DNA from: Alphaproteobacteria bacterium
Lineage (GTDB): Bacteria > Pseudomonadota > Alphaproteobacteria > Caulobacterales > Caulobacteraceae
DNA: 64,000 bases
Direction: 5' to 3'
Assembly: GCA_018826515.1 (NCBI GenBank)
Contig: JAHKAM010000063.1
Location: forward strand, 26,050 to 90,049
A program made the position numbers and the translations under genes. This document shows, piece by piece, positions 24,528-59,237 of the stretch. Position 1 is the stretch's first letter, and each line of letters starts with the position of its first letter. A model generated the notes under the pieces. It ran no database searches and was not told the DNA's origin. It worked only from the letters and a program-made list of their open reading frames with translations.

Positions 24528-24528
24528 C

Positions 24529-28555: not shown

Positions 28556-28561
28556 GTATGC

Positions 28562-31516
28562 TCACCAGCGCTTGACGAGCTGGAGGGAGACCTGACGCCC
28601 AAGGACGTTGGTGTTGGCGGCGTCGTAGCCGATGCCCGCCGGAGCGTCGTAGAAGGGCGGTTCCTCATTGAGAAGATTGAGCACATTCAGGGTGAGCGAC
28701 AGGCCCTTGGCCCACCCGGACTCCAGATCCACGCGCGCCTGACCGTCCAGGGTGATCCAGTCATCGATCGCCCGGCCGCTGGCTGCGTCTCGTCCGCCGC
28801 TGACGTGATTGATGGCGCCCCCGATGGTGAGAGGGCCCAGCATCCATTGCGCGCCGACCCGGCCGCGCCAGCGCGCGGGGAAGTTGGGGCTCCCGAGCAG
28901 ATCTTCCGTCGGCGAGGCCGGCGTTATCGTTCGGTCGTTCGTGAGAAGGTGGGTAACGGTCGCGTCGAGGGCCAGGTCGCCGGACCCCAGGGTGAAGCGA
29001 TAGCGCGTCGACAGATCCAGTCCCTGCACCTCCACCGCCGAGGCGTTGACGTACCGGTTGTCGATCACCGCGCCATAGGCCGTCGCGGGGAAGACGCGCG
29101 GGTTGAAGTTGCCGGGGTGGTCGAGGAGCGACTGCACATAGGCGAGATCGACCGCACTGGTGCGAGGGGCGACGTAGCGGATGAAGGGCGCAAGCGTCGG
29201 ATCGTTCAGGGCGTCGATCAGGTTCTCCGCGACCGGGGTCGCGATCCGGTCCTCGAAGGTGGTGCGGAACCAGCCGCCTTCGATCCGCAACCCTTCAACC
29301 GCGTTCGGCGTCCAGACAAACCCGGCGGTCCAGGATTCGGCGGTCTCCGGGGACAGATCAGGATTGCCGCCGTACTGGACGATGCTGATCACATTGGAGC
29401 CCGCGCGGTCGAGGAAAACCGGACCCAGACGATAGGCGCTGTTCAGCTCGCGCAACGAGGGCGCCCTGAAGGAGGTCCCGAAACTCGTGCGAAAGAGCAG
29501 GTCCGAGGTCGGCTTGTAGAGCAGTCCGACTTTCGGGTTGGTCGTCTGACCGACGCCTTCGTGGTCCTCGATCCGCCCGGCGAGCGACACCTCCAGCCGC
29601 TCGAGGCCGGGGCGGGCGTTGTCCGGCCCCGCGATCGGAATACGAAGCTCGGCGAAGGCGGCGGTGACATCACGCTCGAACCGGGTCGGGGCCGCGATAC
29701 GGGGCGTCGCGCCGGAGATGAAATTTTCACCGGAGGTCTCGAACCGCTCGTGCCGGACATCGAGGCCGACGGCCATGCGAAGGTCGCCGCCGGGCAGGTT
29801 CAGCAGGACGCCGTCCGCCTTCAGGTTCAGCGAGCCCACCGTGCTGATGTTCTCCGACCGAATGTAGCCGGACCCGATGAAGGCCAGCAGCGCCGCGCTG
29901 TGAGAGGCGGGATCGCCGTAGGGGTTGAAGAAGCCGTCGACCGAGGTGCGGAAAGCGGTCGACGGACTGTCGGGCGTCGCGCCGATGGCTTCGTCGAGCC
30001 GGGACGTCTGGACGCGGTTCGTCGCCATCAGCCCCGTCGTCTCACGCCCGCCGCTGATGTAGGCGGCGGTGTTCCAGCCCAGCAGGGTCCCGCTGATTCC
30101 CAGGGCCCCGCCCACGCTCCGTGAGAACCCCTCGTCCCGACCAGGCCCGAGGTCGTTGATGAAGGAGTAGGCGATTTCCTGGAACGGTTCACCGGCGACA
30201 GGGGTGAAGTAAGGGTTGTCGGGAGTGACGAACAGGATGCCGATATCAGCCATCGTGTCCTGATCGTACCGCCGGTCCGTGTAGCGGATGTCGCCGTCCA
30301 GACTGAAACCACCCGGGAGATCCTGACGTCCCGCCAGAAAGACGCTGTGCCGCCTCTGATGCGGGAGGCTCCACTGTCCTTCCATCTGATTGGTCAGATT
30401 GACCGCCCTTGGCCGGAAGTCACCCGGCGTGAGGTTCAGCCCGTTCTGCCCGGGGCGAATGGCATGGGTCGGTTCATATGAACCGCTGACAGGGTCGAAC
30501 GCCATCAGATTGCCGGGCGCGCTGTAGAAGAAGCGGCGGTCGGACCCGCCAAGCGCCCGAAGGTCGGCATCGGCCGTCGCCCGGCGATCCGCCGCCCGGA
30601 GTTCTCCCCGGTCGTGAAATTCATAGGCGGCGACGATTCCGCCGCTCGACCAGTCGAAGCCGCCGCTGTGCGACAGCAGGACTTCCTCGGCGCCGCCGTC
30701 GCTCGTCCCTCCGACGCGGAGGCGGGTTTCGGCCCCTTCGAAACGAGACTTCAGAATGACATTGACGACCCCGCCCACCGCGTCCGCGCCGTACAGGGCC
30801 GAGGCGCCGTCGAGAAGCACGTCCGTTCGTGCAACAGCGCTGGTGGGAATGTTGGAGATGTCTGAGAAATCGCCGGCGCTGCCCGTGCCCGCGATCCGAC
30901 GACCATTGACCAGGACTAGGGTGGCGTCCGCGCCGAGACCCCTCAGGTTCACCCCGGTCGCATAGGCGAGGTTGCGGCTCGTGCGGTCGGCCCCAGTCCC
31001 GGCCGACCCCTCATAGGCCGCGCCTGTGAAATTCTGGGGGAGGGCGGCGAGCGTCTCGGCGACCGTGCCCCGTCCCTGCCGATCGATGTCAGCCTGGGTG
31101 ACGACGGTGACGGGGGAGGGGCTGTCGGCGCCGCGCAGATAGGTCCCGGTCACCACGACTTCCTCCAGCTCCGTGGCCGTATCCGGCTCGAGCTCGGCCC
31201 GCGCGGAAGGGTCGAACAGAACGAAGACAGTAGGCCGGCTTTGGCGGTACGAGAGACCGGTGTCGCGCAGGATGATCTGAAGGGCGGCTTCCGGTGCGTG
31301 ATCGCCGCTCAGGCCGGTCGACTGGCGGCCGGCGACCAGAGCGCTGGGATAGAGGATCTGGAGACCGCTCTGCCGGCCGAAGGCGGGCAGGGTGCGCTCC
31401 AGCGGTCCCGCAGCGATGTCAAAGCGGCGGACGCTGTCCGACGACTGCGCGATCACTGGCGTCGCGACTGCCATCATCAGCGCGGCGAACGCGGTTGAAG
31501 TGTATCCGTGGCCCAT
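28562..31516 (-). CDS. TonB-dependent transducer (FecA-like) with an N-terminal STN signalling domain
   Basis: RRFDIAAGPLERTLPAFGRQSGLQILY is the STN domain. EEVVVTGTY marks the plug. The C-terminus ends in LQLVKRW. Length is 984 aa. Confidence 0.9.
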   Translation of the reverse strand: MGHGYTSTAFAALMMAVATPVIAQSSDSVRRFDIAAGPLERTLPAFGRQSGLQILYPSALVAGRQSTGLSGDHAPEAALQIILRDTGLSYRQSRPTVFVLFDPSARAELEPDTATELEEVVVTGTYLRGADSPSPVTVVTQADIDRQGRGTVAETLAALPQNFTGAAYEGSAGTGADRTSRNLAYATGVNLRGLGADATLVLVNGRRIAGTGSAGDFSDISNIPTSAVARTDVLLDGASALYGADAVGGVVNVILKSRFEGAETRLRVGGTSDGGAEEVLLSHSGGFDWSSGGIVAAYEFHDRGELRAADRRATADADLRALGGSDRRFFYSAPGNLMAFDPVSGSYEPTHAIRPGQNGLNLTPGDFRPRAVNLTNQMEGQWSLPHQRRHSVFLAGRQDLPGGFSLDGDIRYTDRRYDQDTMADIGILFVTPDNPYFTPVAGEPFQEIAYSFINDLGPGRDEGFSRSVGGALGISGTLLGWNTAAYISGGRETTGLMATNRVQTSRLDEAIGATPDSPSTAFRTSVDGFFNPYGDPASHSAALLAFIGSGYIRSENISTVGSLNLKADGVLLNLPGGDLRMAVGLDVRHERFETSGENFISGATPRIAAPTRFERDVTAAFAELRIPIAGPDNARPGLERLEVSLAGRIEDHEGVGQTTNPKVGLLYKPTSDLLFRTSFGTSFRAPSLRELNSAYRLGPVFLDRAGSNVISIVQYGGNPDLSPETAESWTAGFVWTPNAVEGLRIEGGWFRTTFEDRIATPVAENLIDALNDPTLAPFIRYVAPRTSAVDLAYVQSLLDHPGNFNPRVFPATAYGAVIDNRYVNASAVEVQGLDLSTRYRFTLGSGDLALDATVTHLLTNDRTITPASPTEDLLGSPNFPARWRGRVGAQWMLGPLTIGGAINHVSGGRDAASGRAIDDWITLDGQARVDLESGWAKGLSLTLNVLNLLNEEPPFYDAPAGIGYDAANTNVLGRQVSLQLVKRW

Positions 31517-31608
31517 GGCTTTCCCCCGTTTTTCTACCCGCGAATGTGCGGGGCGGGGAGGAGACGTTGGGTCGCGGACCTTGGGCTAAGTCCGGGAGCG
31601 AATTATTT

Positions 31609-32583
31609 TCAGGCGCCGCGGCTGAGCACGATGCGACCGTCTTCCGTCCGGGCGGCCTGAAGCGGATAGAGGTCCGTCAGGGCGGCGACGAAGCCGTCGA
31701 TGTCGCCCGCGTTAAAGACCCCGCTGACCCGGATTTCGGACACGCGGGCGTCCTGCAACTCGATCGGCTCGCGGCTGTAGCGATTGACCTCCGCCACCGC
31801 CACCGAGACCGGGGTGTTCTCGAACGTCAACCGTCCGACCGTCCAGCTCGTCGCCGCCGCGACGTCTGTGGTCATCACCTGGGGCTGGCGGGCGGAGGTG
31901 ACGACCTGCTGCCCCGGCGTCAGGGACCACTGAGCCGGTCGGTCCATGTCGTGCCGGACGGCGACCCGCCCGTCGACCAGAATGACGCGAGCGCCCGCGC
32001 CGGAGCGCCGGACGTCGAAGCGGGTGCCCAGAGCCGTCACCCTTGTGTCCCCGGCCGCCACCACGAAGGGGCGCGCCGCGTCGCCCTCGACATCGAACAT
32101 GGCCTGGCCCGAGGTGAGGGTGACGGCGCGGCGGTCACGCGTGTAGCGCACCGCCACCCGGGTGTTGGTGTCCAGAGTGATGCGCGAGCCGTCGTGCAGC
32201 TGCACCGTCCTCTGCTCCCCGACGGCCGTGGCATAAGTAGCGGGCCGCTGCTGGAGCCAGGCGAGACTGAAAGCGCACACGGCCACGGCCGCCGCACCGG
32301 CGACGCCCAGAGAGACCAGACGGCCCGAGGGCCTGCGCTTCTCTCGGGCTTCAGTCCCGCGCCTGGCCTCGGCCGTCAGGGCCGCCAGCTCGGGGTTGCC
32401 GGCCAGCGCGCCCGCGGCGTCCCACATGGCCTCGATCTTCTGGAAGGCGTGCGCATTGGCGGGATCGCGGCGCCAGGCGCTGAAACCGCGCACGTCCGCC
32501 GTCGTGACCTTGCGCTGATTGAGCCGAGTGAACCACTCGACGGCTTCCTTGCGCCTGATGTCGGCCTCCGCCTCGATCGTCAT
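31609..32583 (-). CDS. FecR-family anti-sigma factor / sensor
   Basis: EAVEWFTRLN...FSAWRRDPANAHAF N-terminus, one TM helix, and a FecR domain (VQLHDGSRITLDTNTRV). Confidence 0.85.
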   Translation of the reverse strand: MTIEAEADIRRKEAVEWFTRLNQRKVTTADVRGFSAWRRDPANAHAFQKIEAMWDAAGALAGNPELAALTAEARRGTEAREKRRPSGRLVSLGVAGAAAVAVCAFSLAWLQQRPATYATAVGEQRTVQLHDGSRITLDTNTRVAVRYTRDRRAVTLTSGQAMFDVEGDAARPFVVAAGDTRVTALGTRFDVRRSGAGARVILVDGRVAVRHDMDRPAQWSLTPGQQVVTSARQPQVMTTDVAAATSWTVGRLTFENTPVSVAVAEVNRYSREPIELQDARVSEIRVSGVFNAGDIDGFVAALTDLYPLQAARTEDGRIVLSRGA

Positions 32584-32592
32584 CCGTCTTGC

Positions 32593-33135
32593 CTAAAGGT
32601 CCAGCCGAGACGCGCAATACTCGAGCGCCCGGGCCATCCGCCACTTCACGGTCTGCTCGCTGATCTCGAGGGTCCGGGCAATCTCCGGGTAAGTCATACC
32701 GCCAAAGCGACTGAGAACGAAGACTTTGCGGTAAAGGGGCGGCATATCGCGGATCGTCTCCGTCAGCAGCGCGGCGTCGAACTGCACGGCCGCTTCGCTG
32801 ACAGGCGGGGGCGCCGCCACCTGATGACGTCGCTGCAGGGCGTCCTGCCTGTGCGAGTCAGTCAGGAGGTTCAAGGCGATCCGGAGCAAGAAGGCCTTGG
32901 GGTGCCGGATGTCGGCCAGGGCGTAGGGCGCGGCGCGGATATAGGTCTCCTGAACCACGTCCGCGGCCGCATCCGCGCCGATCCGACCGCGCAGACGCCG
33001 TCCCAGCCAGGGTGCGTACTGACGGTAAAGACGGCCAAGACCATCCTGTCCCTCCGCGCCCAGCTGCTTCGTGTCTGTCACCACGCCTCTCCGACCTCTT
33101 CCAAAAAGGTCCGGAATCCGGGCGAGACGGCGCAC
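32593..33135 (-). CDS. ECF sigma factor (FecI-like)
   Basis: AADVVQETYIRAA is region 2. YRKVFVLSRFGGMTYPEIARTLEISEQTVKWRM is region 4. Confidence 0.85.
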   Translation of the reverse strand: MRRLARIPDLFGRGRRGVVTDTKQLGAEGQDGLGRLYRQYAPWLGRRLRGRIGADAAADVVQETYIRAAPYALADIRHPKAFLLRIALNLLTDSHRQDALQRRHQVAAPPPVSEAAVQFDAALLTETIRDMPPLYRKVFVLSRFGGMTYPEIARTLEISEQTVKWRMARALEYCASRLDL

Positions 33136-33667: not shown

Positions 33668-33881
33668 GGTTTGGTGCAACGAAGAGTAGGGGGCGGGTCT
33701 GGAACTTCTGTACGGAAGCCGGGGGTTTCAGCCCTGATCGCCGCCGACGCGATGCGTCCCCTGGCTCAGGATCAGCGCCTATACGTTCCGGAACCCGCCA
33801 ACGGTGCTTATCCTCTGCGGTGTGGCGCCCGGACAAGTCGAAAGTGGTCGGCGGGCCGATGTCCGGGTCCAGGAGAAGCGC

Positions 33882-34283
33882 GTGAAGCCGATCACGAAAC
33901 TCGAGATGTACGAAATCGACGATCCGGCCGAGCCCTATCGGGTGGTGATGTGGTGTCTTCCGCCGGGGCCGCCCGAAGACCCGCGTATCGGGGAGCGTTT
34001 CCCCGAAGGGTCGATCGAGGTGCCCAAGAGCTTCGGGGCGATCTGGTTCGACGTCTCGACGTGGCAGGGCGGTTTCGTCGCACAAGCGACCTTCGCCGCC
34101 GACGCCGATGCGGTCCGGTGCGATACCATCACCGTCAATGAGGCCCATCGGATGAAAGGGGTTGCGACACAGCTCTACGAGACAGCCAGCGGCGTTTTCC
34201 AAGGGCCCGTCATTCCTTCGGACAATCAGACGCCCGACGCGGTGGCGTTCTGGGGCGGGAGGACGCAGATCCTTCGTCCGTGA
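33882..34283 (+). CDS. Small protein with a GNAT-like motif A (function uncertain)
   Basis: The GTG at 33882 is preceded by AGGAGAA. ITVNEAHRMKGVATQLYETA resembles the acetyl-CoA-binding motif of GNATs. Confidence 0.4.
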   Translation: MKPITKLEMYEIDDPAEPYRVVMWCLPPGPPEDPRIGERFPEGSIEVPKSFGAIWFDVSTWQGGFVAQATFAADADAVRCDTITVNEAHRMKGVATQLYETASGVFQGPVIPSDNQTPDAVAFWGGRTQILRP

Positions 34284-34399
34284 GCGCCGGGCGCGAATTT
34301 CTTCCCGTCAAGGTCGTGTCGGTTGATCAGGTTCGGCTCGCAGCGTAGCGTCGCCGGTTCCGGGGACGGCGACGGGGGCTCGCGGAGGGGCGGCCGCAG

Positions 34400-35677
34400 G
34401 TGATTGATCTTGATGGCGATGGGGCGGATGGCCTGGAGGAGCCGCGTCTCGATGAAACGAGAAGCGGTGACCCTGGCGATGAGGCCGAACGCAACTTCCG
34501 ATATCAGCACCAGTACGGGGTGGTTCTGCTCGTCGCCGTTCGGCGCGGCGCCTTCCCCTACGTGAACCTCTACTGCGAACACCACGAGGATCTGCTGTGC
34601 GAGCGTCCGGACGGCCTGTTCGACGGTTGGCAGATCAAGACGTCCACGCCGGAGAACGGACCCTGGACGCTTCGCGATGCCGCCCTGGTCAAGTCGATCG
34701 GCCGTTTCGTCGACCTGTGCGCGACCTACCCCTCGCAGATTGGCGTCCTGTACTTCGTGTCCAACTCCGACTTCGATGTGGTGGGCGACGACATCCAGGA
34801 TCAGAAGCGCCGCGGCCGATGCCCTCCGCTGATGCTGGCGCACCTGAGGGCCTGCCCCTCGCTTGCGGACATCGCGCCACCCTTCCTGGCGGCCTTCGAC
34901 GAACTGGGGGCCACCCTGGGCGCCGACCGGCAGAGGCTGTTCGACGTCCTGCGACGGGTGGAGCTGGTCAAGGGACCGTCCAGGGCGGAGTTTGACGCGA
35001 CCCTGGCCCACGAGCATCTCGGGGGGCTGGGCGACTGCAACGCCCTCACACCCGCCCAGCTGTCCGAGCTTCGTGACGACCTGGTCGCGCGGGTCCACCG
35101 CGCCGCCTCCCTGCATGTCACCGCCCCGGGACGCCACACCCGCAGCCTTCTGGCCGAGGACGACGAGGATCCCGTCATCACCGCAAAGCGCATCGTCTGC
35201 GCCGATGTCGTCTTCGCCCCGCCCACGATCGCCCTGAAGGCCTTCGCCTATCAGGGCCAGTCCCGACTGACGCCCGGCGGTCCCCGGCGAGCCGGCGTCC
35301 TTGAACAGAAGCTCGAAGCGGGCGGCTTGGGCGAAGCCGTGAGCTACATGACCGCCAAGGAGATGGCCGCGGAATACGCCCTGCTGGAGGATCAGGCGCG
35401 CAACCCTGTCGCCGCCGAGAAACAGCTCAAGCAGATCGAGGAGGCCGTCCACGGCGAATGCGTGGAGGCCTATTACGCCGCCGCGAACGACTCCGAGACC
35501 TTCGGCCCGGCCATGCTGACGGATGTGACCGGCAGGCTGCGCAGGCTAGAGGGCGACCGCAGGTCGCTCACGGGTGGACAGCCCTACGAAGTGCTGGTCG
35601 GCGTCGCCGCCATGCTGACGCGGGAGTGCCGTGTCTGGTGGAGCAAGCGCTTTGACGTCCAGGAGCCGCGCCCATGA
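34400..35677 (+). CDS. Cap4/DUF4297-like dsDNA nuclease-domain protein (predicted effector of the three-gene system)
   Basis: AERNFRYQHQYGVVLL...LYCEHHEDLLCERPDGLFDGWQIKT is the N-terminal restriction-endonuclease-fold pattern of DUF4297/Cap4 nucleases. About 270 residues of helical C-terminal region of unknown function follow. The start is GTG. Confidence 0.7.
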   Translation: MIDLDGDGADGLEEPRLDETRSGDPGDEAERNFRYQHQYGVVLLVAVRRGAFPYVNLYCEHHEDLLCERPDGLFDGWQIKTSTPENGPWTLRDAALVKSIGRFVDLCATYPSQIGVLYFVSNSDFDVVGDDIQDQKRRGRCPPLMLAHLRACPSLADIAPPFLAAFDELGATLGADRQRLFDVLRRVELVKGPSRAEFDATLAHEHLGGLGDCNALTPAQLSELRDDLVARVHRAASLHVTAPGRHTRSLLAEDDEDPVITAKRIVCADVVFAPPTIALKAFAYQGQSRLTPGGPRRAGVLEQKLEAGGLGEAVSYMTAKEMAAEYALLEDQARNPVAAEKQLKQIEEAVHGECVEAYYAAANDSETFGPAMLTDVTGRLRRLEGDRRSLTGGQPYEVLVGVAAMLTRECRVWWSKRFDVQEPRP

Positions 35678-36267
35678 GCCTCGGGGTCCTGAAGGCGGCC
35701 GCCCGGGCAGAGAACACCGATGGCCTGCATCTGATGCGGCTGCTGGTCCTGCTCAGGTGCGCCGACAAGCGCGGCAGGACGCCCAAGCCCGTGGAAGGGA
35801 TCACGAAGCTGGCCAAGCTAGACTTCCTTCTGCGCTACCCCGTCTATCTGGAGCGGGCCCTGGTCGCGCGCGGGAAATCGCCCGACGCGGTTCATCTGTC
35901 GCCGCGTGAACGGACGACCGTGGAAACGCGGATGATCCGCTTCCGCTACGGTCCATGGGACGGGCGCTACAGGCGGTGGCTCAGTCTGCTGTCGGCGCGA
36001 GGCCTCGTCACCCTGTCGCTCTCCGGCCGGAAGATCGAGATTGGGCTGACCGACGCCGGCCGTGCGGTCGCAGACGATTTCGCGCAGCGGCCGCTGTTCG
36101 CGGACCTCGCCGAGCGAGGGACGCTGGTGGTCAAGACCGTCGGAGACATGTCGGCCATGAAGCTCAAGGACTTCGTCTACGAGATCGTCCCGGAAATCAC
36201 GGGCATGAAGTGGGGGCAGGAGATCGGCGCCGAAAACGGCGCCGCCCTGGACGGTGATCAGTCGTGA
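35674..36267 (+). CDS. wHTH 'middle component'-like protein
   Basis: ITKLAKLDFLLRYPVYLE is a pattern I associate with ABC-3C middle components. There is a 4-nt ATGA overlap with the upstream gene. Confidence 0.55.
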   Translation: MSLGVLKAAARAENTDGLHLMRLLVLLRCADKRGRTPKPVEGITKLAKLDFLLRYPVYLERALVARGKSPDAVHLSPRERTTVETRMIRFRYGPWDGRYRRWLSLLSARGLVTLSLSGRKIEIGLTDAGRAVADDFAQRPLFADLAERGTLVVKTVGDMSAMKLKDFVYEIVPEITGMKWGQEIGAENGAALDGDQS

Positions 36268-38216
36268 AATTTCATCTGCAGTCGCTGAGCCTCGATCTGA
36301 GGCATGCGACCGAGACCATCGTCTTCTCGGACATCACCTATTTCTGGGGCCAGATGGGCGCCGGGAAGTCCAGCATCGCCCGGCTGATAGACTACTGCCT
36401 CGGCGGCGGCATCCAGCTGTCACCGGCCCTGCAGGCCGAATTCGTATCCGCGACGCTCACTGTGGAGCTTGAGCGGAGCACGCTCACGATCGAGCGGCAG
36501 CGCGACGGGGCCAATGTCTTCGCCTCATGGACCGTCGGGGACGAGGTCCAGTCGGTGATCGTGCCGGCCAGGGCCGCTGCCGGGGAGCTGATCCCCCTTA
36601 CCGGCGTCGAGACCCTGTCGGACCTCATCTTCTGGCTGTCCGGCGTCCAGCCGCCGCGCGTTCGCAAGAGCAAGCTGAAGGACGACAGCAAGACGGTCCG
36701 TCTCTCCGTCAGGGACCTGCTCTGGTACTGCTATCTGGATCAGGACAACATCGACAGCGCCTTCTTCCATCTGGAAGAGGACGCCGAGTTCTACCTGCGC
36801 CTGAAGAGCCGCGACGTGATCCGGTACGTCATCGGATATCACGACGAACGGGTCGCCGATCTCGAGGCCGAACTGGACCAGCTGCGCGCCAACCGCACGG
36901 CCCGCGCCTCCGCCATCGAAAGCCTGACCCGAACCCTCGACGAAGTGGGCGCCGGCTCCGAAGCGCAGATCGCCGAGCGCGAAGCGTCCCTGAAGGCGGC
37001 CCTGGCCGAAGCGGAGGCCAGCATCGTGGCCCTGCGGGAGCTGAAGCGGGTCGGCCAGACCGAGCATGCCGTCGATATCCTCGCACGCCGGACCCGCCGT
37101 CTCGGCGCTGGCATCGCCCGCCTCGACGTCGCGGCCGATGAACTGCTCGCCGCGCGCGAACGACATGTGCGCCATCGAAACGAGATCGAGACCCTCGGCC
37201 TGAAGTTCCGGCGCTCTGCCGTGGCGCGGGAAATCCTCGGCGACGTCGGGTTTGCGGACTGCCCCCGATGCACCCAGAGCCTTCCGGCGCGCCCGGCTCG
37301 TTGTTGCGAGGTCTGCGGCCAGGACGACAGGCTCGAACTGACCGACGCGGCGGAGCAGGCCGCTCTGGAACTGGACATCGCCTCGCGCCGGGCGGACCTC
37401 GACAGCGCGATCGAAGAGATCGACCGCAGTCTCACCCGTATCCGACTGCGGCGGGAGCGCGCGCTGGACCGGAAGGCGTCCCTTGAAACCGCCCGCAACC
37501 GCGCGAGCGAGGAAGCGGACTCGGCGTTCCTGTCGACAGTCCTGTTGAAGGAGCGCGAGCGCGCGGCGCTCGAGGCCGAACTACAGAGCCTCGCCTGGCT
37601 GCTGCGGCTTCCCGACCTCCTGCAGCAACAGCGCGACGCGCTTGCCCAGATCATCGCGCTGGAACTCGCGCTGAAGGAGGCCCTGAAGGACGCCCGCACG
37701 TCGGCCGAAGCCGACCGGACCAGTCTGACCAGACTCGGCGACTATTTCCTCGACGCCCTAGTCCAGTCCGGCGTGCCGGGCATCCAGCGCGACGACCGCG
37801 TCGCCCTGGAGCCGCCGACCTTCTACCCCGCCGTCTTCAGTAGCGACCCTTCCGATCTGACGGCCTCGACCTTCACCTCAATGAGCAGCGGCGGGAAGAA
37901 GACCCTGTTCAAATGCTGCTTCGCCATAGCCGTCCACCGGATCGCGGCCCTGCTCGACGCGCCCCTGCCGGAGCTTCTGATCATCGACTCCCCGATGAAG
38001 AACATCAGTGAACGAGAGAACAGGGCGCAGTTCGAAGGCTTCTATCGGATGGTCTACGCTTTGAAGGCCGGGGAGCTGTCCGAGACCCAGATCATCCTGA
38101 TCGATAAGGAGTACCTACCCCCTGATCCGGCGCTGGGACTGGATATTCGCAGCCGGCACATGCAGCCCGACAGCACCCAGCACGAGCCGCTTATCCGTTA
38201 TTACCGGGGCAAATAG
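36264..38216 (+). CDS. SMC/Rad50-like ABC ATPase with a long coiled-coil insert and a CxxC...CxxC apex
   Basis: Walker A GQMGAGKSS. Coiled-coil-rich middle region. CPRCTQSLPARPARCCEVCG. Signature-like SMSSGGKK. Walker B ELLIIDSP. A GTGA overlap links it to the upstream gene. Confidence 0.8.
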   Translation: MKFHLQSLSLDLRHATETIVFSDITYFWGQMGAGKSSIARLIDYCLGGGIQLSPALQAEFVSATLTVELERSTLTIERQRDGANVFASWTVGDEVQSVIVPARAAAGELIPLTGVETLSDLIFWLSGVQPPRVRKSKLKDDSKTVRLSVRDLLWYCYLDQDNIDSAFFHLEEDAEFYLRLKSRDVIRYVIGYHDERVADLEAELDQLRANRTARASAIESLTRTLDEVGAGSEAQIAEREASLKAALAEAEASIVALRELKRVGQTEHAVDILARRTRRLGAGIARLDVAADELLAARERHVRHRNEIETLGLKFRRSAVAREILGDVGFADCPRCTQSLPARPARCCEVCGQDDRLELTDAAEQAALELDIASRRADLDSAIEEIDRSLTRIRLRRERALDRKASLETARNRASEEADSAFLSTVLLKERERAALEAELQSLAWLLRLPDLLQQQRDALAQIIALELALKEALKDARTSAEADRTSLTRLGDYFLDALVQSGVPGIQRDDRVALEPPTFYPAVFSSDPSDLTASTFTSMSSGGKKTLFKCCFAIAVHRIAALLDAPLPELLIIDSPMKNISERENRAQFEGFYRMVYALKAGELSETQIILIDKEYLPPDPALGLDIRSRHMQPDSTQHEPLIRYYRGK

Positions 38217-38237: not shown

Positions 38238-38702
38238 CTAATCGCGCGCCGAATAACGAGTGTGGTGACCATCGCAGTGCGTGTGGTTTCCAAGCGCCTC
38301 GATCACCCGGCAATCGGAAATCCTCCCACCCGAGCAACTCGCCGCCTGAATCCGGGCGAGTTCGGCGTGCAGCGCCTGAAGCCCGGCGATGCGAGCCTCA
38401 ACCGCCGCAAGCTGGCGCTCGGCGATCCGGTTGACCTCCGTGCAGGGCCGGTCGGGTTCGTCGGACAGCGCCAGAAGGGCGCGGATGTCGTCGATCTCGA
38501 ACCCCAGCTGCCGCGCATGGCGAATGAAGGCCAGCCGCCGCGTCGCAGCGCCGTCGTAGAGGCGCCGGTCGCTCGCAGTGCGGGGCGGCTCCGCCAGCAG
38601 GCCGATCTTCTCGTAGAACCGGATCGTCGGAATCTTCACGCCGGTCTCGGCCGAAAGGCGACCGATCGTCCGGAGCGGGGGAAGGGATGGGTCTCTGGCC
38701 AT
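38238..38702 (-). CDS. MerR-family metal-responsive regulator
   Basis: IGRLSAETGVKIPTIRFYEKIGLL HTH. C-terminal Cys pair CSGGRISDC. Confidence 0.85.
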   Translation of the reverse strand: MARDPSLPPLRTIGRLSAETGVKIPTIRFYEKIGLLAEPPRTASDRRLYDGAATRRLAFIRHARQLGFEIDDIRALLALSDEPDRPCTEVNRIAERQLAAVEARIAGLQALHAELARIQAASCSGGRISDCRVIEALGNHTHCDGHHTRYSARD

Positions 38703-38740: not shown

Positions 38741-38755
38741 ATGCATGAAGGGTGC

Positions 38756-39424
38756 ATGACGACGCCCGCTCCGACAGAATCCTGCGCTCCGTCCCGAGGC
38801 TGCTGCGGCCACCAGGTCCGGTTCGACGGGGCCTCGCCCGCCTATCGGCGCGTGCTTGTGGCCGTCATCGCCCTTAATCTGGGTGGGTTCTTCGCGGTCG
38901 CCGCGGGCGGTCTCATGCAGGGATCGGCGGCGCTCGCCGCCAATGCGATGGACTTCCTGGCCGACAGCGCCACCTACGCCATCAGCCTCTGGGCCATCGG
39001 AAAGTCCGTGCGGGTGCGCTCCGGCGCCGCAGTCTTCAAGAGCGCGAGCCTCCTCGTGATGGCCGTGACCATTCTCGGCTACGCCGTCTGGAGAGCCGTC
39101 ACCGGCCAGCCGCCCGAAGGCGCCGTCATCACCGGTCTTGGACTGGTCGGTTTCGCAGCCAATCTGGTTGCGGCCCTGCTACTCGTGCGCTTCCGCGAGG
39201 GCGACGCCAACGTCCGCTCCGTCTGGCTCTGCACCCGGAACGACCTCATCCACAGCCTCGGCGTCGCCGCGGCCGGCGGGCTGGTCTGGCTGACCGGATC
39301 CCGGTGGCCGGACCTGCTGGCTGGCCTTCTGTTGGGCGGGGTCTTCCTGCAATCCGCGATCTCTATCCTGTTACAGGCAAGAGCGGAGAGCCGCGCAGCA
39401 ACGTCTGCGGCGCGGACTTTGTAA
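38756..39424 (+). CDS. Short cation diffusion facilitator-type transporter (TMD only)
   Basis: SAALAANAMDFLADSATY is a TM2 DxxxD motif. Length is about 222 aa with six hydrophobic segments and no cytoplasmic C-terminal domain. The start is moved to the ATG at 38756, downstream of the operator. Confidence 0.75.
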   Translation: MTTPAPTESCAPSRGCCGHQVRFDGASPAYRRVLVAVIALNLGGFFAVAAGGLMQGSAALAANAMDFLADSATYAISLWAIGKSVRVRSGAAVFKSASLLVMAVTILGYAVWRAVTGQPPEGAVITGLGLVGFAANLVAALLLVRFREGDANVRSVWLCTRNDLIHSLGVAAAGGLVWLTGSRWPDLLAGLLLGGVFLQSAISILLQARAESRAATSAARTL

Positions 39425-39865: not shown

Positions 39866-41119
39866 ATGTCTCCCACATCTCGCAGGCGGCCGCGTTACGC
39901 GGTCGGCTGCGCCCTCGCCGCGATCGCGGCGAGCCTGGCCAGTCCCGTATGGGCTGACCCGGCCCCGACCTATGCCCAACTCCTCGCCCAGCTCGGGGAC
40001 GCTCCGGCGACACTCGAAGCCGGCGCCAACTATGACGCCGCCGAGGCCCGTGTCCGTCAGGCGCGGGTGCGGCCCAACCCCGTCCTCGGCTTCGATGTCG
40101 AGAACGCCTACGGCTCAGGTCCCTATTCAGGCCTGAACAACGCGGACATGACCTTGGCGCTGAGCCAGGATCTCGAGCTGTGGGGGCGTCGTTCGACGCG
40201 TATCGCCGCCGCCCGCGCCGAGGCCGGTGCGGTCGGGCTGCAGCGGGATCTCGCCGTGGTCGACGCCGCCGGCCGTCTCGCCCTCGTCTACGCCGAGGCG
40301 GAAGCGGCGCAGAGGCGCGCGACCCTCGCCGAGGAAACCCTGACCCTCACGGTCGCGGACGCCCGCGCCGCCCTGACGCTGGTGGAGGAGGGACGCGAGC
40401 CCCTGCTGCGCGGCATCCAGGGCGAGGCCGAGGCCGCCTCGGCCCGCGCTACGCGGGATGAGGCCGTCGCTGAGCGCGACGCCGCCTACGCGCGCCTGAC
40501 CGCGGTCGCCATGACCCCGGTCGCCGTGACCCGGATCGACGACAGTCTCCTGGACGAGACGCCCGCGACGATCGGCTCCGTGATCGATGACGCTCCTACG
40601 GTCCGCGTGGCCGAGGCGCAGCGGTCCGCAGCCGAACGGCGCATCGATGTTCAACGGGTTCAGGCCCGCCCGGACATCAACGCCAGCATCGGCATCCGCC
40701 GCTTCGAGGCGGAGGACGCGACGGCCCTGACCTTCGGGATCAGCATGCCGTTGCCGCTGTTCGACCGGAACCGGGGGAACATCGAGGCGGCCCAGGCCGA
40801 ATTTCGCGCGGCCGACGCCCGGCTGATGAGCGCACGGCAGGAGGCCCAGGCGGATCGCGCCGCTGCGGTCGCCCGCCTCGCGGCCTCCGTCAGCCGCGTC
40901 AACGCCGCCGACGCCGGCGTCACCGCCGCCGAGGAAGCCTACCGCCTGTCGCGGATCGGCTTCGAGTCCGGCCGGATCTCCCAGGTCGAACTGCGGGTCA
41001 CCCGCACAGCCCTCGTCAACGCCCGGTCCGCCGCCGTGGACGCGCGTCTCGCGCGTGTCCGCGCCGAGATCGATCTCGCGCGCCTCAACGGCCGCGCCCC
41101 CTTCGAAGGAGCCCAGTGA
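39866..41119 (+). CDS. czcC: Outer-membrane efflux protein CzcC (TolC family)
   Basis: Signal peptide and two OEP repeats. Position is upstream of czcB and czcA. Confidence 0.85.
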   Translation: MSPTSRRRPRYAVGCALAAIAASLASPVWADPAPTYAQLLAQLGDAPATLEAGANYDAAEARVRQARVRPNPVLGFDVENAYGSGPYSGLNNADMTLALSQDLELWGRRSTRIAAARAEAGAVGLQRDLAVVDAAGRLALVYAEAEAAQRRATLAEETLTLTVADARAALTLVEEGREPLLRGIQGEAEAASARATRDEAVAERDAAYARLTAVAMTPVAVTRIDDSLLDETPATIGSVIDDAPTVRVAEAQRSAAERRIDVQRVQARPDINASIGIRRFEAEDATALTFGISMPLPLFDRNRGNIEAAQAEFRAADARLMSARQEAQADRAAAVARLAASVSRVNAADAGVTAAEEAYRLSRIGFESGRISQVELRVTRTALVNARSAAVDARLARVRAEIDLARLNGRAPFEGAQ

Positions 41120-45300: not shown

Positions 45301-45555
45301 GGCGCCGACCCACGCCTCGCCGCCATCGAAGGGGCGACGAGCCGGCTGCGCGCCGTCCTGACCACGGCCCTGGTCGCCATCGTCGGCTTCATTCCGATGG
45401 CGTTCGCCCACGGTGCCGGGGCGGAGGTGCAGAAGCCTCTGGCCACCGTCGTAATCGGCGGCCTGCTGACGGCGACGGCCTTGACCCTGCTGGTCCTGCC
45501 GACCTTCGCGGCCAAGGCCGTGAAGCACCGCAAGGCTGAAGGGCTCGAGGAATGA
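42331..45555 (+). CDS. czcA: Heavy-metal efflux RND pump CzcA/CusA family
   Basis: Length is 1074 aa. RFRWFVVLATAIVAAFGLYNLTQLPIDAVPDITNRQVQINT matches the HME-RND N-terminus. Confidence 0.95.
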   Translation: MFKAIIEASVRFRWFVVLATAIVAAFGLYNLTQLPIDAVPDITNRQVQINTIAPALAPEQMERQVTYPLETAMAGIPGIQTTRSLSRNGFSQVTVIFSDSTDIYFARQQVAERMAQARERLPEGVEPALAPITTGLGEVLMWTVDFKPFNSANLAKPGEPGWQAGGAYLTPEGELLTTPQARATYLRTVQDWIIAPRMRTAKGLAGVDVNGGYVKEYAVRPDAARLAGYGLSLNDLIVALERANTQAGAGYVQRSGEALTVRTDALAQTIPDLAQAPVVNRNGLVVRVADVATVEIGQAPRLGGASRDGHEAVVGTALMLAGGNSRTVAQAAAERLEEVSASLPPSVVAEPVLNRSSLVNKTISTVAKNLIEGALLVIVVLFLLLGNIRAASITALMIPISFLFAVIGMNRFGISGNLMSLGALDFGLLVDGAVVVVENTLLMLSQKRAEAGRMLTRRERLAVAGAAARQMVKPAAFGQLIILLVFTPLLMLEGVEGKTFIPMGATVMLALVGAFIFSFTFVPAMTALLVRDPKKVEVDEHGHAHEHETFILRYARRWIEPAIRAAVDRPKIVLASALGALVIGGIAFSTLGREFIPTLDEGDIAMQALRVPSASLEQSLAMQMALERVIKAQPEVKTIFARTGTAEAAVDPMPPNISDAVIVLKDRKEWPDPNLPKEELIARFEELAAGQLGNSFEFSQPIELRFNELISGVRTDLAVMVYGDDFTQLQATADRVANALRATPGSADVRVEQASGLPTLTVSVDRFAAANYGLSAADVSEAVSAAVGGAEAGQIFEGDRRFSVVVRLADEARNDPAALAALPITTATGVTVPLSSVARIQVAEGQNQISRNDGSRRMVVQANVRGRDLGGFVTEAQAKVQSEVDLPTGYSLTWGGQFENLKRAEQRLGLVIPIVFILIGVLLFMALGSFAEAGLVFACVPLALIGGALALVLRGMPFSVSAAVGFIAVSGVATLNGLVLMQAIRERLTGGADPRLAAIEGATSRLRAVLTTALVAIVGFIPMAFAHGAGAEVQKPLATVVIGGLLTATALTLLVLPTFAAKAVKHRKAEGLEE

Positions 45556-51907: not shown

Positions 51908-52046
51908 GTTGAGAATGTTATTGTGTAACGCGCCGTTGATCCAGTGAATTGTCGTCGCGGACGCGCCTCGGCGATGATGATTTCGTGACGACCCGCGGAT
52001 TGGTTTGCGGTACTATGGGGGAGTATCTTTCCGATCGGGTCCGCAG

Positions 52047-56037: not shown

Positions 56038-59237
<3,200 letters not shown>

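What the first reader, a model, noticed from the sequence alone, without database searches (positions are those of the whole stretch)
34400..38216. Three overlapping genes encoding nuclease, wHTH and coiled-coil ABC ATPase: candidate ABC-3C-like conflict system with no experimental precedent that I know of
- **Operon structure.** The genes at 34400-35677, 35674-36267 and 36264-38216 are linked by ATGA and GTGA overlaps, which indicates a tight operon.
- **Gene 1.** It has the N-terminal restriction-endonuclease-fold pattern of Cap4/DUF4297 dsDNA nucleases (FRYQHQY...CEHHEDLL...DGWQIKT). About 270 residues of uncharacterised helical region follow.
- **Gene 2.** A small wHTH-like protein (KLAKLDFLLRYP).
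- **Gene 3.** An ABC ATPase split by a roughly 300-residue coiled coil. Its motifs are Walker A GQMGAGKSS, SGG signature and Walker B LLIIDSP.
- **Classification.** This matches the computationally proposed ABC-three-component class (ATPase sensor, middle component, effector). As far as I recall, its trigger and mechanism have not been established experimentally.
- **Context.** It sits on a mobile element between a RiPP locus and a metal island, which is a typical setting for defence cargo.
Basis: partly seen in the sequence, partly recalled or inferred. Interest (0 to 1): 0.85.

Follow-up and report, generated by a model that had tools for sequence, protein, structure and literature searches.

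The report
Type II Lamassu (LmuA-LmuC-LmuB) defence operon
The three overlapping genes are a normal, intact copy of Lamassu (also called ABC-3C or DdmABC), a well-studied bacterial anti-phage and anti-plasmid system carried here on a conjugative element, so the finding is real but not new.

Summary

All three match the Lamassu models in PADLOC:
- LmuA: 1e-16, full length.
- LmuC: 2.5e-13.
- LmuB: 1e-72, full length.

Supporting evidence:
- Gene 1 passes Pfam Cap4_nuclease. Its AlphaFold model best matches the solved Salmonella and Vibrio LmuA chains.
- A profile of gene 3 and its relatives hits only the LmuB chains of the solved Lamassu complexes.
- The A-C-B order is kept in 57 of 60 testable loci from many bacterial phyla and two archaea.

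That system has phage and plasmid defence data, mutants and cryo-EM structures. In the established mechanism an LmuA1B2C1 complex senses DNA ends or replication intermediates and releases LmuA, which tetramerises into an active DNA nuclease and aborts the infection. The claim of "no experimental precedent" is therefore wrong.

This copy belongs to the short LmuB class with two CxxC zinc-hook motifs and a D-S Walker B. That class is already catalogued, but I found no structure or assay for it among the papers and PDB hits I examined. Verdict: new member of a known kind, low interest.

The parts
34400..35677 (+). lmuA: effector protein (425 aa), made of an N-terminal Cap4-type PD-(D/E)xK dsDNA nuclease and the LmuA C-terminal domain
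   Evidence: PADLOC LmuA PDLC03848, 1.1e-16, covering residues 24-419. AF2 model with pLDDT 84. The top Foldseek PDB hits are Salmonella LmuA 9hr5 (1.8e-8) and V. cholerae LmuA 9nxx, aligned over about 430 columns.
34469..34780 (+). Cap4 nuclease domain of LmuA (residues 24-127) with the putative catalytic residues E60, D64, Q78 and K80
   Evidence: Pfam PF14130 Cap4_nuclease, 3.7e-13, 50.6 bits against a 26.2 cut-off. E60, D64, Q78 and K80 are invariant in alignments of 26 and 40 sequences down to 22% identity. The motif is present in 61 of 61 loci.
35294..35677 (+). Helical C-terminal domain of LmuA (about residues 299-425). In solved Lamassu complexes this domain is the part held by LmuB/LmuC and the tetramerisation module.
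   Evidence: The model has helices at 300-408 with pLDDT above 85. Full-length structural alignments to solved LmuA chains. The functional role is taken from PMC12663957 and is inferred here.
35674..36267 (+). lmuC: small middle component (197 aa) with a winged-helix-like core
   Evidence: PADLOC LmuC PDLC03872, 2.5e-13, and PDLC03869, 1e-9. AF2 model with pLDDT 80 and pTM 0.78. The best global structural match is V. cholerae LmuC 9ny5_C (TM 0.44/0.49, prob 0.94); the other hits are MarR-type wHTH proteins, and all are weak. It always lies between lmuA and lmuB.
36264..38216 (+). lmuB: short SMC/Rad50-like ABC ATPase sensor (650 aa)
   Evidence: PADLOC LmuB PDLC03862, 9.6e-73, covering residues 23-616. 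Pfam AAA_23 above its cut-off. The family profile hits only LmuB chains of solved Lamassu complexes: 9hqu/9hqx at 6e-8 and 9ny5/9uxh/9uxl at 8e-7.
36348..36371 (+). LmuB Walker A motif, GQMGAGKS (residues 29-36)
   Evidence: G29, G34 and K35 are invariant in 28 sequences. Coordinates.
37260..37316 (+). Double CxxC zinc-hook motif at the coiled-coil apex (CPRC 333-336 and CEVC 348-351)
   Evidence: All four cysteines are invariant in 28 sequences at 31-74% identity. Two CxxC within 20 residues in 60 of 60 full-length homologues. The 'two copies' class of short LmuB is described in PMC12663957.
37884..37901 (+). ABC signature motif, SSGGKK (residues 541-546)
   Evidence: S542, G544, K545 and K546 are invariant.
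37974..37994 (+). Variant Walker B motif LLIIDSP (residues 571-577), with Ser in place of the catalytic Glu
   Evidence: D575 is invariant. The following residue is S in 44 and T in 14 of 60 homologues. This matches the short-Lamassu consensus hhhhD[Q/S/T/E] (PMC12663957).
38218..38235 (.). GC-rich hairpin between the convergent ends of lmuB and the merR-family gene; a possible terminator
   Evidence: Pattern scan and sequence. The number of such sites in the region is not above chance (3 found, 2.8 expected), so this is weak.

Best explanation
This is an intact type II (three-gene), short-LmuB, Cap4-nuclease Lamassu defence system, lmuA-lmuC-lmuB. The same system is also called ABC-3C and is the DdmABC type. 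It sits as cargo on a conjugative element of a Brevundimonas/Caulobacteraceae bacterium.

Likely mechanism, by homology with the solved Vibrio cholerae and Salmonella systems:
1. Two LmuB protomers, one LmuC and one LmuA form a resting complex. The C-terminal domain of LmuA is held at the hook-proximal coiled coils, which keeps the nuclease monomeric and inactive.
2. The LmuB head, together with LmuC, binds DNA ends or replication intermediates of an invading phage or plasmid. ATP binding and slow hydrolysis by the variant D-S Walker B contribute.
3. LmuA is released and tetramerises through its C-terminal domain.
4. The paired Cap4 domains cut DNA non-specifically. This kills or arrests the cell (abortive infection) or eliminates the plasmid.

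Shown here: gene structure, family membership of all three proteins, conservation of the catalytic, ATPase and zinc-hook residues, and conserved synteny. Inferred from literature: stoichiometry, trigger, tetramer activation and phenotype.
For: **PADLOC**
- The top hit for each protein is the corresponding Lamassu component: LmuA 1.1e-16 (near full length), LmuC 2.5e-13, LmuB 9.6e-73 (near full length).

**LmuA**
- Pfam Cap4_nuclease is above its gathering score.
- The model (pLDDT 84) best matches Salmonella LmuA 9hr5 (E 1.8e-8) and V. cholerae LmuA 9nxx/9ny1. The next matches are the related nucleases HamA, Cap4 and Avs3.
- E60, D64, Q78 and K80 are invariant and present in 61 of 61 loci.

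**LmuB**
- The family profile hits the LmuB chains of the solved Lamassu complexes at 6e-8 to 8e-7; the only other hits (E 0.004-0.008) are unrelated helical or coiled-coil proteins.
- In that alignment V. cholerae R152, which contacts the DNA 5'-phosphate, lines up with R150. R150 is conserved in at least 90% of the family.
- Length 650 aa, Walker B LLIIDS and two CxxC motifs all fit the published description of short LmuB.

**LmuC**
- The best global fold match is V. cholerae LmuC (TM 0.44/0.49). The other hits are MarR-like wHTH proteins, as the literature reports for LmuC models.

**Synteny and context**
- lmuA-lmuC-lmuB are colinear and adjacent in 57 of 60 testable loci across Proteobacteria, Cyanobacteria, Bacteroidota, Planctomycetota, Firmicutes, Chloroflexota, Acidobacteriota and Nitrososphaerota archaea.
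- There is no conserved fourth gene.
- In 5 to 7 loci the operon has type I R-M genes next to it (hsdM and hsdS homologues upstream, hsdR homologues downstream). The full hsdM-hsdS ... hsdR embedding was Pfam-confirmed in L037 only.
- The window carries T4SS, relaxase and ArdC genes.

**Literature**
- ABC-3C is the same as type II Lamassu, and the mechanism is published.
Against: - No experiment exists on this copy or, as far as I found, on any member of its two-CxxC subclade.
- Sequence similarity to the solved systems is low. Identity to solved LmuA chains is 9-15%.
- Single-sequence searches of the PDB found nothing for LmuA or LmuB and only chance-level hits for LmuC.
- The LmuA family profile found nothing in the PDB by sequence.
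- The LmuC fold match is below significance (best E 0.024; VcLmuC E 0.097).
- V. cholerae LmuB K55, in the DNA-end pocket, is not conserved here (my reading of the alignment).
- Stoichiometry and activation could not be modelled, because no multimer prediction was available.
- The promoter and terminator scans are at chance level.
Confidence: 0.93

Rival explanations
1. Same Lamassu machinery, but its selected role here is competition between mobile elements. The conjugative element would carry it mainly to destroy or exclude incoming plasmids or ICEs, as DdmABC eliminates plasmids, rather than to defend against phages.
For: - The operon sits on an element with relaxase, MobC, T4SS and ArdC genes.
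- Near-identical copies keep the same right flank (MerR-czc) in several element variants.
- Homologues occur on Rhizobium, Ensifer, Spirosoma and Hymenobacter plasmids.
- The literature reports anti-plasmid activity of DdmABC.
Against: - The tested Lamassu systems reported in the papers I read protect against phages.
- Most of the 72 homologous loci are on large chromosomal contigs. Several lie next to, or (L037) within, type I R-M genes, which is a general defence setting.
- The two roles are not mutually exclusive.
Confidence: 0.3
2. A housekeeping Rad50/SbcC-like DNA-repair or chromosome-maintenance ATPase with accessory proteins, not an immune system.
For: - LmuB gives weak Pfam or NCBIfam hits to SMC_N, SMC_prok_A and AAA_23 (Rad50/SbcC-type).
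- Lamassu is thought to derive from SbcCD.
Against: - No Mre11/SbcD phosphoesterase partner is present.
- The partner genes are LmuA (Cap4 nuclease) and LmuC.
- SMC and SbcC model scores are far below their cut-offs (12-19 bits against 40-729), whereas LmuB scores 244 bits.
- Distribution is patchy and linked to mobile elements, and some copies are disrupted by an IS.
Confidence: 0.02
3. A different nuclease-plus-ATPase defence family: CBASS Cap4 effector, Hachiman, Wadjet, Gabija, PARIS or Septu.
For: - The nuclease domain is of the Cap4 type and structurally resembles CBASS Cap4, HamA and the Avs3 nuclease.
- There are weak PADLOC hits to JetC (0.03), AriA (0.08) and PbeC (7e-4).
Against: - No SAVED/CARF domain was detected in gene 1, and none of the neighbouring ORFs I scanned matched a CD-NTase.
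- None of the ORFs I scanned matched a HamB helicase, JetA/B/D or TOPRIM/OLD domain.
- These hits are 10 to 70 orders of magnitude weaker than the Lamassu hits.
- The LmuA C-terminal domain aligns with solved LmuA, not with SAVED.
Confidence: 0.02
4. A decayed, non-functional relic carried passively on the element.
For: - Some relatives are clearly decayed. L018 has an IS insertion that removes lmuA and truncates lmuC. L055 is an orphan lmuB.
Against: - Here all three ORFs are full length.
- All invariant catalytic, Walker, signature and cysteine residues are intact.
- Translational coupling is intact.
- Copies at 96-100% identity are found in several independent assemblies.
Confidence: 0.04

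Closest known systems
Vibrio cholerae DdmABC / Lamassu Vc-Cap4 (LmuA=DdmA, LmuC=DdmB, LmuB=DdmC; PDB 9ny5, 9nyg, 9nxx, 9ny1, 9uxh-9uxl)
   Same: - Same three-gene order: nuclease, small protein, ATPase.
- Cap4-type LmuA with a helical C-terminal domain.
- Short LmuB of about 650 aa (V. cholerae 653 aa) with Walker A, signature motif and a non-Glu Walker B.
- The Arg that contacts the DNA 5'-phosphate (VcR152) aligns with the conserved R150.
- VcLmuC is the best global fold match for gene 2.
   Different: - V. cholerae LmuB has no zinc hook; this LmuB has two invariant CxxC motifs.
- Sequence identity is very low: about 9-10% for LmuA in the structural alignment, and the LmuB relationship is detectable only by profile at 8e-7.
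- VcK55 of the end-binding pocket is not conserved.
- The host is an alphaproteobacterium with 68% GC.
- This LmuB does not hit Pfam DUF3732, the molecule name given for the solved LmuB chains in the PDB.
Salmonella enterica LmuACB (PDB 9hqu, 9hqx, 9hr5; Li et al., bioRxiv 10.1101/2025.03.14.643221)
   Same: - Best PDB match for both LmuB (profile E 6e-8, aligned over residues 12-576, with its CPMC aligned to the first CxxC here) and LmuA (Foldseek 1.8e-8, 15% identity).
- It has a zinc hook that is required for defence.
- It has a variant Walker B and a nuclease Lys that is essential.
   Different: - In the alignment only the first CxxC of this family aligns to a CxxC (CPMC) in the Salmonella LmuB; no cysteines align to the second, so it appears to have a single hook motif.
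- Its Walker B variant is D-Q, whereas here it is D-S.
- The sequences are otherwise highly divergent.
ABC-3C (ABC-three-component systems of Krishnan et al. 2020)
   Same: It is the same thing as type II Lamassu (stated in 10.1101/2025.06.23.660979; predicted homologues from Krishnan et al. were used to seed Lamassu detection in PMC12663957).
   Different: Nothing separates the two. The name is an earlier computational label for a system that has since been characterised experimentally.
CBASS Cap4 effectors (PDB 6vm5, 6vm6, 6wam, 6wan)
   Same: Same nuclease domain family: Pfam PF14130 and structural matches at E about 1e-4 over roughly 215-240 columns.
   Different: - Cap4 couples the nuclease to a SAVED/CARF sensor of cyclic oligonucleotides.
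- Here the C-terminal half is the LmuA domain instead.
- The partners are LmuB and LmuC, not a CD-NTase.
Rad50-Mre11 / SbcCD
   Same: ABC ATPase heads split by a coiled coil with a CxxC zinc hook and DNA-end recognition. This is the proposed evolutionary origin of Lamassu (PMC12663957).
   Different: - No Mre11/SbcD nuclease partner.
- Much shorter coiled coil.
- The Walker B Glu is replaced.
- The nuclease is of the Cap4 type and is controlled by sequestration and release.

Membership tests
Lamassu, type II, short LmuB, Cap4 effector | LmuB: an SMC/Rad50-like ABC ATPase of about 600-650 aa, with Walker A, signature motif and Walker B split by a coiled coil | tested here: met
   PADLOC LmuB at 9.6e-73, full length. 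Pfam AAA_23 above its cut-off. The profile hits solved LmuB chains at 6e-8 to 8e-7. Motifs are located and invariant.
Lamassu, type II, short LmuB, Cap4 effector | Variant Walker B of short Lamassu, hhhhD[Q/S/T/E] (PMC12663957) | tested here: met
   The motif here is LLIIDS. Among 60 homologues the residue after Asp is S in 44 and T in 14; the published consensus is.
Lamassu, type II, short LmuB, Cap4 effector | LmuA: an N-terminal effector domain (here Cap4 dsDNA nuclease) followed by the LmuA C-terminal domain | tested here: met
   Pfam PF14130 at 3.7e-13. PADLOC LmuA covers residues 24-419. Foldseek top hits are solved LmuA chains aligned over about 430 columns.
Lamassu, type II, short LmuB, Cap4 effector | Intact nuclease catalytic residues (PD-(D/E/Q)xK; the Lys corresponds to VcLmuA K57 and SeLmuA K68) | tested here: met
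   E60, D64, Q78 and K80 are invariant and present in 61 of 61 loci. The residue-by-residue equivalence of K80 to VcK57 or SeK68 is inferred and was not aligned directly.
Lamassu, type II, short LmuB, Cap4 effector | LmuC: a small protein encoded with lmuA and lmuB | tested here: met
   PADLOC LmuC at 2.5e-13 and 1e-9. It lies between lmuA and lmuB in 57 of 60 loci. The fold match to VcLmuC is only suggestive (TM 0.44/0.49, E 0.097).
Lamassu, type II, short LmuB, Cap4 effector | Conserved co-occurrence of the three genes as one operon | tested here: met
   57 of 60 testable loci are colinear. Median spacing between the matched segments is 9 nt (A to C) and 6 nt (C to B). Two exceptions were inspected: L018 has an IS insertion and L055 is an orphan lmuB. 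The third, L071, gave only short LmuA and LmuC matches and was not inspected.
Lamassu, type II, short LmuB, Cap4 effector | Zinc-hook CxxC at the coiled-coil apex (0, 1 or 2 copies in short LmuB) | tested here: met
   Two copies, with all four Cys invariant. Zinc binding itself was not tested.
Lamassu, type II, short LmuB, Cap4 effector | LmuA1B2C1 resting complex, DNA-end sensing, and release and tetramerisation of LmuA | not testable with these tools
   No multimer prediction or biochemistry was available. Taken from PMC12663957 and the two 2025 bioRxiv papers.
Lamassu, type II, short LmuB, Cap4 effector | Anti-phage or anti-plasmid protection through abortive infection, dependent on the Walker A Lys, the effector and lmuC | not testable with these tools
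   This needs an experiment. It has been shown for other members.
CBASS (Cap4 effector) | SAVED/CARF ligand-sensing domain fused to the Cap4 nuclease, with a CD-NTase in the operon | tested here: not met
   Gene 1 has no SAVED or CARF hit. Its C-terminal half matches LmuA. None of the neighbouring ORFs I scanned matched a cyclase.
Rad50-Mre11 / SbcCD | Mre11/SbcD phosphoesterase partner, long coiled coil and a canonical Walker B Glu | tested here: not met
   The partner genes are LmuA and LmuC. The Walker B is D-S. SMC models score far below their cut-offs.
Wadjet (JetABCD) | JetC SMC of about 1100 aa with the JetA kleisin, JetB and the JetD Toprim nuclease | tested here: not met
   JetC is only at E 0.03 over 25 residues. 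No JetA, JetB or JetD genes were seen.

The most novel reading that the evidence does not exclude
The subclade to which this operon belongs could work differently from the solved Lamassu systems. Its features are an LmuB with two invariant CxxC motifs 11 residues apart, a D-S/T Walker B, no Pfam DUF3732 hit, and 9-15% identity to the solved LmuA chains in structural alignment. It is spread from Proteobacteria to Nitrososphaerota archaea.

It might form an intramolecular four-Cys zinc knuckle at the coiled-coil apex instead of an intermolecular Rad50-type hook. That would imply a different way of dimerising LmuB, holding LmuA or setting the trigger than in the Vibrio (hook-less) and Salmonella (apparently single-hook) complexes. 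I found no member of this subclade that has been solved or assayed.
Probability: 0.2. Interest if true: 0.35.

Novelty: new member of a known kind. Interest (0 to 1): 0.15.

Why it matters
For this genome it is a useful annotation. The three genes carry generic or no functional names in public records: "hypothetical protein" or "AAA family ATPase", "dsDNA nuclease domain-containing" for lmuA, and in places the wrong label "rRNA maturation endonuclease Nob1". They can now be labelled lmuA, lmuC and lmuB.

The operon is also an example of defence cargo that travels with a heavy-metal island on a Brevundimonas conjugative element.

It opens no new question about how such systems work. The class is common: 15% of complete prokaryotic genomes carry a Lamassu according to PMC12663957, and the mechanism has been solved structurally.

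The only modest point of interest is that the two-CxxC, D-S Walker B subclade is widespread yet has no structure or assay of its own. A member like this one could serve as a representative if someone wants to test whether the double hook changes assembly.

Tried and rejected
**Searches that found little or nothing**
- Single-sequence phmmer of each protein against PDB sequences: nothing for LmuA or LmuB, and only chance-level MarR and prefoldin hits for LmuC.
- LmuA family profile against the PDB by sequence: no hit. The relationship only appeared by fold comparison.
- LmuC profile against the PDB: only a marginal MarR hit at 0.0095.
- NCBIfam: no meaningful hit for any of the three proteins.
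- Megablast of the operon against PLSDB plasmids: no match.

**A fourth component**
- The 159-aa ORF just upstream (33804-34283) was considered as a fourth component and rejected.
- It has no Pfam or PADLOC hit.
- It is present only in the near-identical Caulobacteraceae copies.
- No flanking ORF family is shared by more than 8 of about 63 loci.

**Regulatory signals and composition**
- The promoter and terminator scan is at chance level.
- No compositional anomaly sets the operon apart from its surroundings.
- The window has no tRNA gene.

**Technical limits**
I rebuilt the alignment from the search for homologous proteins ids.
- Both structure-prediction jobs went to LmuA and LmuC, so LmuB and its hook could not be modelled.

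**Alternative identities rejected**
- CBASS, Hachiman, Wadjet, Gabija, PARIS and SbcCD; see the rival explanations and the membership test.

Full report
**1. Observation**

The window holds three co-directional ORFs at exactly the coordinates given: 34400-35677 (425 aa, GTG), 35674-36267 (197 aa, ATG) and 36264-38216 (650 aa, GTG). The four-base overlaps ATGA and GTGA are there. A GGAGG lies about 10 nt before the first GTG.

The ORFs have the codon-position GC signature of real genes in this 68% GC sequence, with GC3 0.84-0.86 and GC2 about 0.45. The long antisense ORFs over the same DNA have lower GC3, 0.74-0.76, and are the usual high-GC shadows. Each protein has many full-length homologues.

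**2. What the three proteins are**

PADLOC gives the corresponding Lamassu component as the top hit for each protein:
- Gene 1: LmuA, 1.1e-16, covering residues 24-419 of 425.
- Gene 2: LmuC, 2.5e-13, with a second LmuC model at 1e-9.
- Gene 3: LmuB, 9.6e-73, covering residues 23-616 of 650, with a dozen further LmuB models behind it.

All hits to other defence families (JetC, AriA, PbeC, mad3) are weaker by tens of orders of magnitude.

Pfam places Cap4_nuclease (PF14130) on residues 24-127 of gene 1 at 50.6 bits against a 26.2 cut-off. It places AAA_23 just above its cut-off on gene 3 and finds nothing significant on gene 2. NCBIfam has no model for any of them.

**3. Link to solved structures**

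Single sequences find nothing significant in the PDB: no hits for LmuA or LmuB, and only chance-level hits for LmuC.

LmuB:
- I built a profile of 28 LmuB homologues at 31-74% identity (A1).
- Its significant hits are exactly the LmuB chains of the solved Lamassu complexes. Salmonella 9hqu/9hqx scores 6e-8, aligned from residue 12 to 576, with its CPMC under the first CxxC here. V. cholerae 9ny5/9nyg/9uxh/9uxk/9uxl scores 8e-7. The three remaining hits, at E 0.004-0.008, are unrelated helical proteins.
- The identity of those entries is given by the descriptions.

LmuA:
- The LmuA profile finds nothing by sequence.
- An AlphaFold2 model built on 40 homologues is confident (mean pLDDT 84).
- Its best Foldseek matches in the PDB are Salmonella LmuA (9hr5, E 1.8e-8) and V. 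cholerae LmuA (9nxx, 9ny1, 9uxi), aligned over 400-440 columns. Both the nuclease and the helical C-terminal half therefore match.
- The related nucleases HamA, CBASS Cap4 and Avs3 follow, matching over the nuclease part only.
- The low TM-scores (about 0.3) fit a two-domain protein whose domains rotate between states, as the papers describe.

LmuC:
- The model (pLDDT 80, pTM 0.78) gives no significant hit.
- The list consists of MarR-type winged-helix proteins. The best global superposition is V. cholerae LmuC (9ny5_C, TM 0.44/0.49, prob 0.94).
- This matches the published remark that LmuC models repeatedly hit HTH transcription factors.

**4. Conserved residues**

In LmuB the following are invariant across 28 sequences:
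- Walker A G29, G34 and K35.
- The WYCYLDQD block (154-161).
- Signature residues S542, G544, K545 and K546.
- Walker B D575.
- All four cysteines: C333, C336, C348 and C351.

Across all 60 full-length homologues fetched, two CxxC motifs within 20 residues are always present. The residue after the Walker B Asp is Ser (44) or Thr (14).

In LmuA, E60, D64, Q78 and K80 are invariant, and the motif is present in 61 of 61 loci. This is the expected D...QxK arrangement of a Cap4/PD-(D/E)xK nuclease.

In the alignment, V. cholerae LmuB R152 contacts the terminal 5'-phosphate of bound DNA. It falls on R150 of this protein, a position conserved in at least 90% of the family. VcK55 has no basic counterpart.

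**5. Co-occurrence**

A scan of one genome per GTDB species found 72 loci encoding a relative of gene 3. They include:
- A 100% identical copy in a Caulobacteraceae MAG.
- Members in Alpha-, Beta- and Gammaproteobacteria, Cyanobacteria, Bacteroidota, Planctomycetota, Chloroflexota, Acidobacteriota, Nitrospirota and Paenibacillus.
- Two ammonia-oxidising archaea.

Of the 60 loci with enough upstream sequence, 57 have lmuA, lmuC and lmuB in the same order and essentially abutting.

The three exceptions:
- L018: an IS transposase has replaced lmuA and most of lmuC.
- L055: an orphan lmuB fused to an unrelated N-terminal piece.
- L071: only short matches to LmuA and LmuC; not inspected further.

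No other gene family is shared by more than 8 loci, so the system has three genes. In 5 to 7 loci the operon has homologues of type I restriction-modification genes on its flanks. In the one locus checked with Pfam (L037) it sits between hsdM-hsdS and hsdR, which is a classical defence setting.

**6. Context in the window**

Upstream, at 0.1-21.6 kb, is a conjugative backbone:
- SRAP, DUF736 and ArdC.
- A Rep-like HTH protein, MobC and a relaxase.
- LPD7, the VirD4 coupling protein, VirB11, VirB8, VirB6, VirB4 and an SLT transglycosylase.

Then comes a lasso-peptide-type RiPP locus: a McjB-like transglutaminase-fold protease, a McjC-like asparagine-synthase homologue, an S9 peptidase, a TonB-dependent receptor with STN domain, FecR and an ECF sigma factor (FecR and sigma also). 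Next are a small LuxR-type gene and a 159-aa ORF of unknown function.

Downstream is a MerR regulator followed by CDF, CzcCBA-type RND, MFS and further efflux genes.

GC content of the operon (67%) is the same as that of its surroundings.

Near-identical copies (LmuC 99-100% identical) occur in Brevundimonas pondensis and several metagenome contigs. They always keep the same right flank (MerR-czc). The left flank varies. In L077 it is an integrase/DUF3800/ParB context. In L076 a deletion fuses the coupling-protein gene to the TonB-receptor gene. The setting on a mobile element between a RiPP locus and a metal island is correct.

**7. Comparison with what is known**

[quoted passage not shown] V. 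cholerae DdmABC is the best-studied member. The published experimental record is as follows:
- Four Lamassu-family operons protected E. coli or B. subtilis from phages. Walker A mutants, effector mutants and lmuC deletion each abolished defence, and the phenotype was abortive infection (10.1101/2022.05.11.491447).
- Cryo-EM structures of the V. cholerae and Salmonella complexes show an LmuA1B2C1 assembly that sequesters monomeric LmuA and binds DNA ends through the LmuB head and LmuC.
- ChIP-seq shows enrichment at the lambda replication origin during infection.
- DNA degradation is stimulated by ATP and by DNA ends.
- The active nuclease is an LmuA tetramer (PMC12663957; 10.1101/2025.03.14.643221).

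The same PNAS paper catalogues 3,829 systems in 15.4% of complete genomes. It separates short (about 600 aa) from long (about 800 aa) LmuB, gives hhhhD[Q/S/T/E] as the short-type Walker B, and notes that short LmuB carries zero, one or two CxxC copies.

The operon here fits this description point by point: short LmuB, LLIIDS, two CxxC motifs and a Cap4 effector. The mutants and assays it proposed have already been done on other members.

**8. Mechanism proposed for this copy**

This is inferred by homology:
1. At rest, two LmuB, one LmuC and one LmuA form a complex in which the LmuA C-terminal domain (about residues 300-420) is held near the zinc-hook end of the folded coiled coils.
2. The LmuB head, including R150, and LmuC bind DNA ends or replication intermediates of an invader. 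ATP binding and slow hydrolysis by the Ser-variant Walker B contribute.
3. LmuA is released and tetramerises.
4. Paired Cap4 domains (E60, D64, Q78, K80) cleave DNA indiscriminately, aborting the infection or removing a plasmid.

Membership and residue conservation are shown here. The steps of the mechanism are inferred.

**9. What is different**

This family is distant from the solved systems:
- LmuA is 9-15% identical to the solved chains in structural alignment.
- The LmuB relationship is detectable only by profile.
- There is no Pfam DUF3732 hit.

It belongs to the two-CxxC class with a D-S/T Walker B. V. cholerae LmuB has no hook, and in the alignment Salmonella LmuB shows a CxxC only at the first of the two positions.

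Four invariant cysteines spaced CxxC-x11-CxxC could form an intramolecular zinc site rather than a shared Rad50-type hook. I found no report of a solved or assayed member of this subclade. I did not have the supplementary clade tables, however, so this is a limit of my search and not a demonstrated gap.

**10. Verdict**

The feature is real and correctly described at the domain level. It is a routine member of a known, abundant and mechanistically characterised defence family. Novelty: new member of a known kind. Interest: 0.15.

Noticed in passing
window 23817-33135: A lasso-peptide-type RiPP locus. It has a Transglut_core3 (McjB-like) gene at 23817-24527 and an Asn_synthase (McjC-like) gene at 24529-26244 on the + strand. 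Facing them are an S9 peptidase (possibly a lasso isopeptidase) at 26177-28555, a TonB-dependent receptor with STN domain at 28562-31516, FecR at 31609-32583 and an ECF sigma factor at 32593-33135. I did not look for the precursor peptide gene.
   Followed up: partly
window 1373-21600: A conjugative backbone: SRAP, DUF736, ArdC anti-restriction protein (2665-3549), a Rep-like HTH/DnaD_N protein (5477-5977), MobC (6352-6906), relaxase (6903-7907), LPD7, VirD4 coupling protein (10227-12080), VirB11, VirB8, VirB6/TrbL, VirB4 (17779-20388) and an SLT transglycosylase (20974-21600). The window has no tRNA gene, and no integrase turned up among the ORFs I scanned, so whether this is an ICE or a plasmid is unresolved.
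   Followed up: partly
window 4710-5393 (- strand): The ORF has partial hits to PADLOC PD-T4-5 (7e-12) and AbiD (7e-7), and to Pfam Abi_2 (just above its gathering score). It may be a second, possibly truncated, abortive-infection gene on the same element.
   Followed up: no
window 33804-34283 (+ strand): A 159-aa ORF directly upstream of lmuA has no Pfam or PADLOC hit. By eye it has a GNAT-like 'HRMKGVATQLYE' stretch. It accompanies the Lamassu operon in all near-identical Caulobacteraceae copies (L001, L073-L080), even where the left flank differs. It is absent from the other 71 genome loci (L002-L072). A hairpin followed by T-rich sequence (34275-34303) comes after its stop codon.
   Followed up: partly
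L076 4562-5842; L077 1520-7994: These are variants of the host element. In L076 one 426-aa ORF combines TonB-receptor STN/Plug domains with T4SS coupling-protein domains. This implies a deletion that removed the T4SS and the lasso locus. In L077 the left flank is replaced by an integrase, DUF3800, an Exo_endo_phos protein and a ParB_N protein whose gene ends at the same coordinate as the LuxR-type gene in the other copies. That suggests a recombination breakpoint inside the LuxR-type gene.
   Followed up: no
L025, L033, L035, L037, L039, L050 (flanks of the lmuACB operon): In L037 the operon lies between the hsdM-hsdS genes and the hsdR gene of a type I restriction-modification system (Pfam-checked). 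In the other listed loci, homologous flanking ORFs cluster with those genes on one or both sides. This looks like a defence system embedded within another defence system.
   Followed up: partly
L018 4419-5546; L055 5590-7941: These are decayed relatives. In Singulisphaera (L018) a DDE transposase gene replaces lmuA and leaves only the C-terminal end of lmuC. In Aquimarina (L055) lmuB stands alone and is fused in frame to an N-terminal segment with a P-loop (GEWGSGKS).
   Followed up: partly
L052, L063: Complete lmuA-lmuC-lmuB operons of this same subfamily (LmuB 35% identical) occur in Nitrosopumilaceae and Nitrososphaerota archaeal MAGs. This indicates transfer between domains of life.
   Followed up: no
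window 38238-63323: A large metal and efflux island. It contains MerR (38238-38702, - strand), a CDF gene (38741-39424), a CzcC-like outer-membrane gene (39866-41119), an RND pump (42331-45555), an 834-aa ORF (46967-49471) that I did not scan, an MFS transporter (52005-53381), an acyltransferase (54868-56037), a second RND pump (56037-59222, - strand) and a second CDF gene (62379-63323, - strand). The CDF gene right after MerR is absent from the B. pondensis copy (L073), which has a 118-aa ORF there.
   Followed up: no
protein hits P0013, P0017, P0121, P0312: Public annotation oddities. Some LmuB homologues are named 'rRNA maturation endonuclease Nob1'. A 96% identical LmuA is filed under a Pseudomonas sp. 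assembly. A 94% identical LmuC fragment is filed under the fungus Friedmanniomyces endolithicus. These are probably mis-annotation, or contamination of those assemblies.
   Followed up: no
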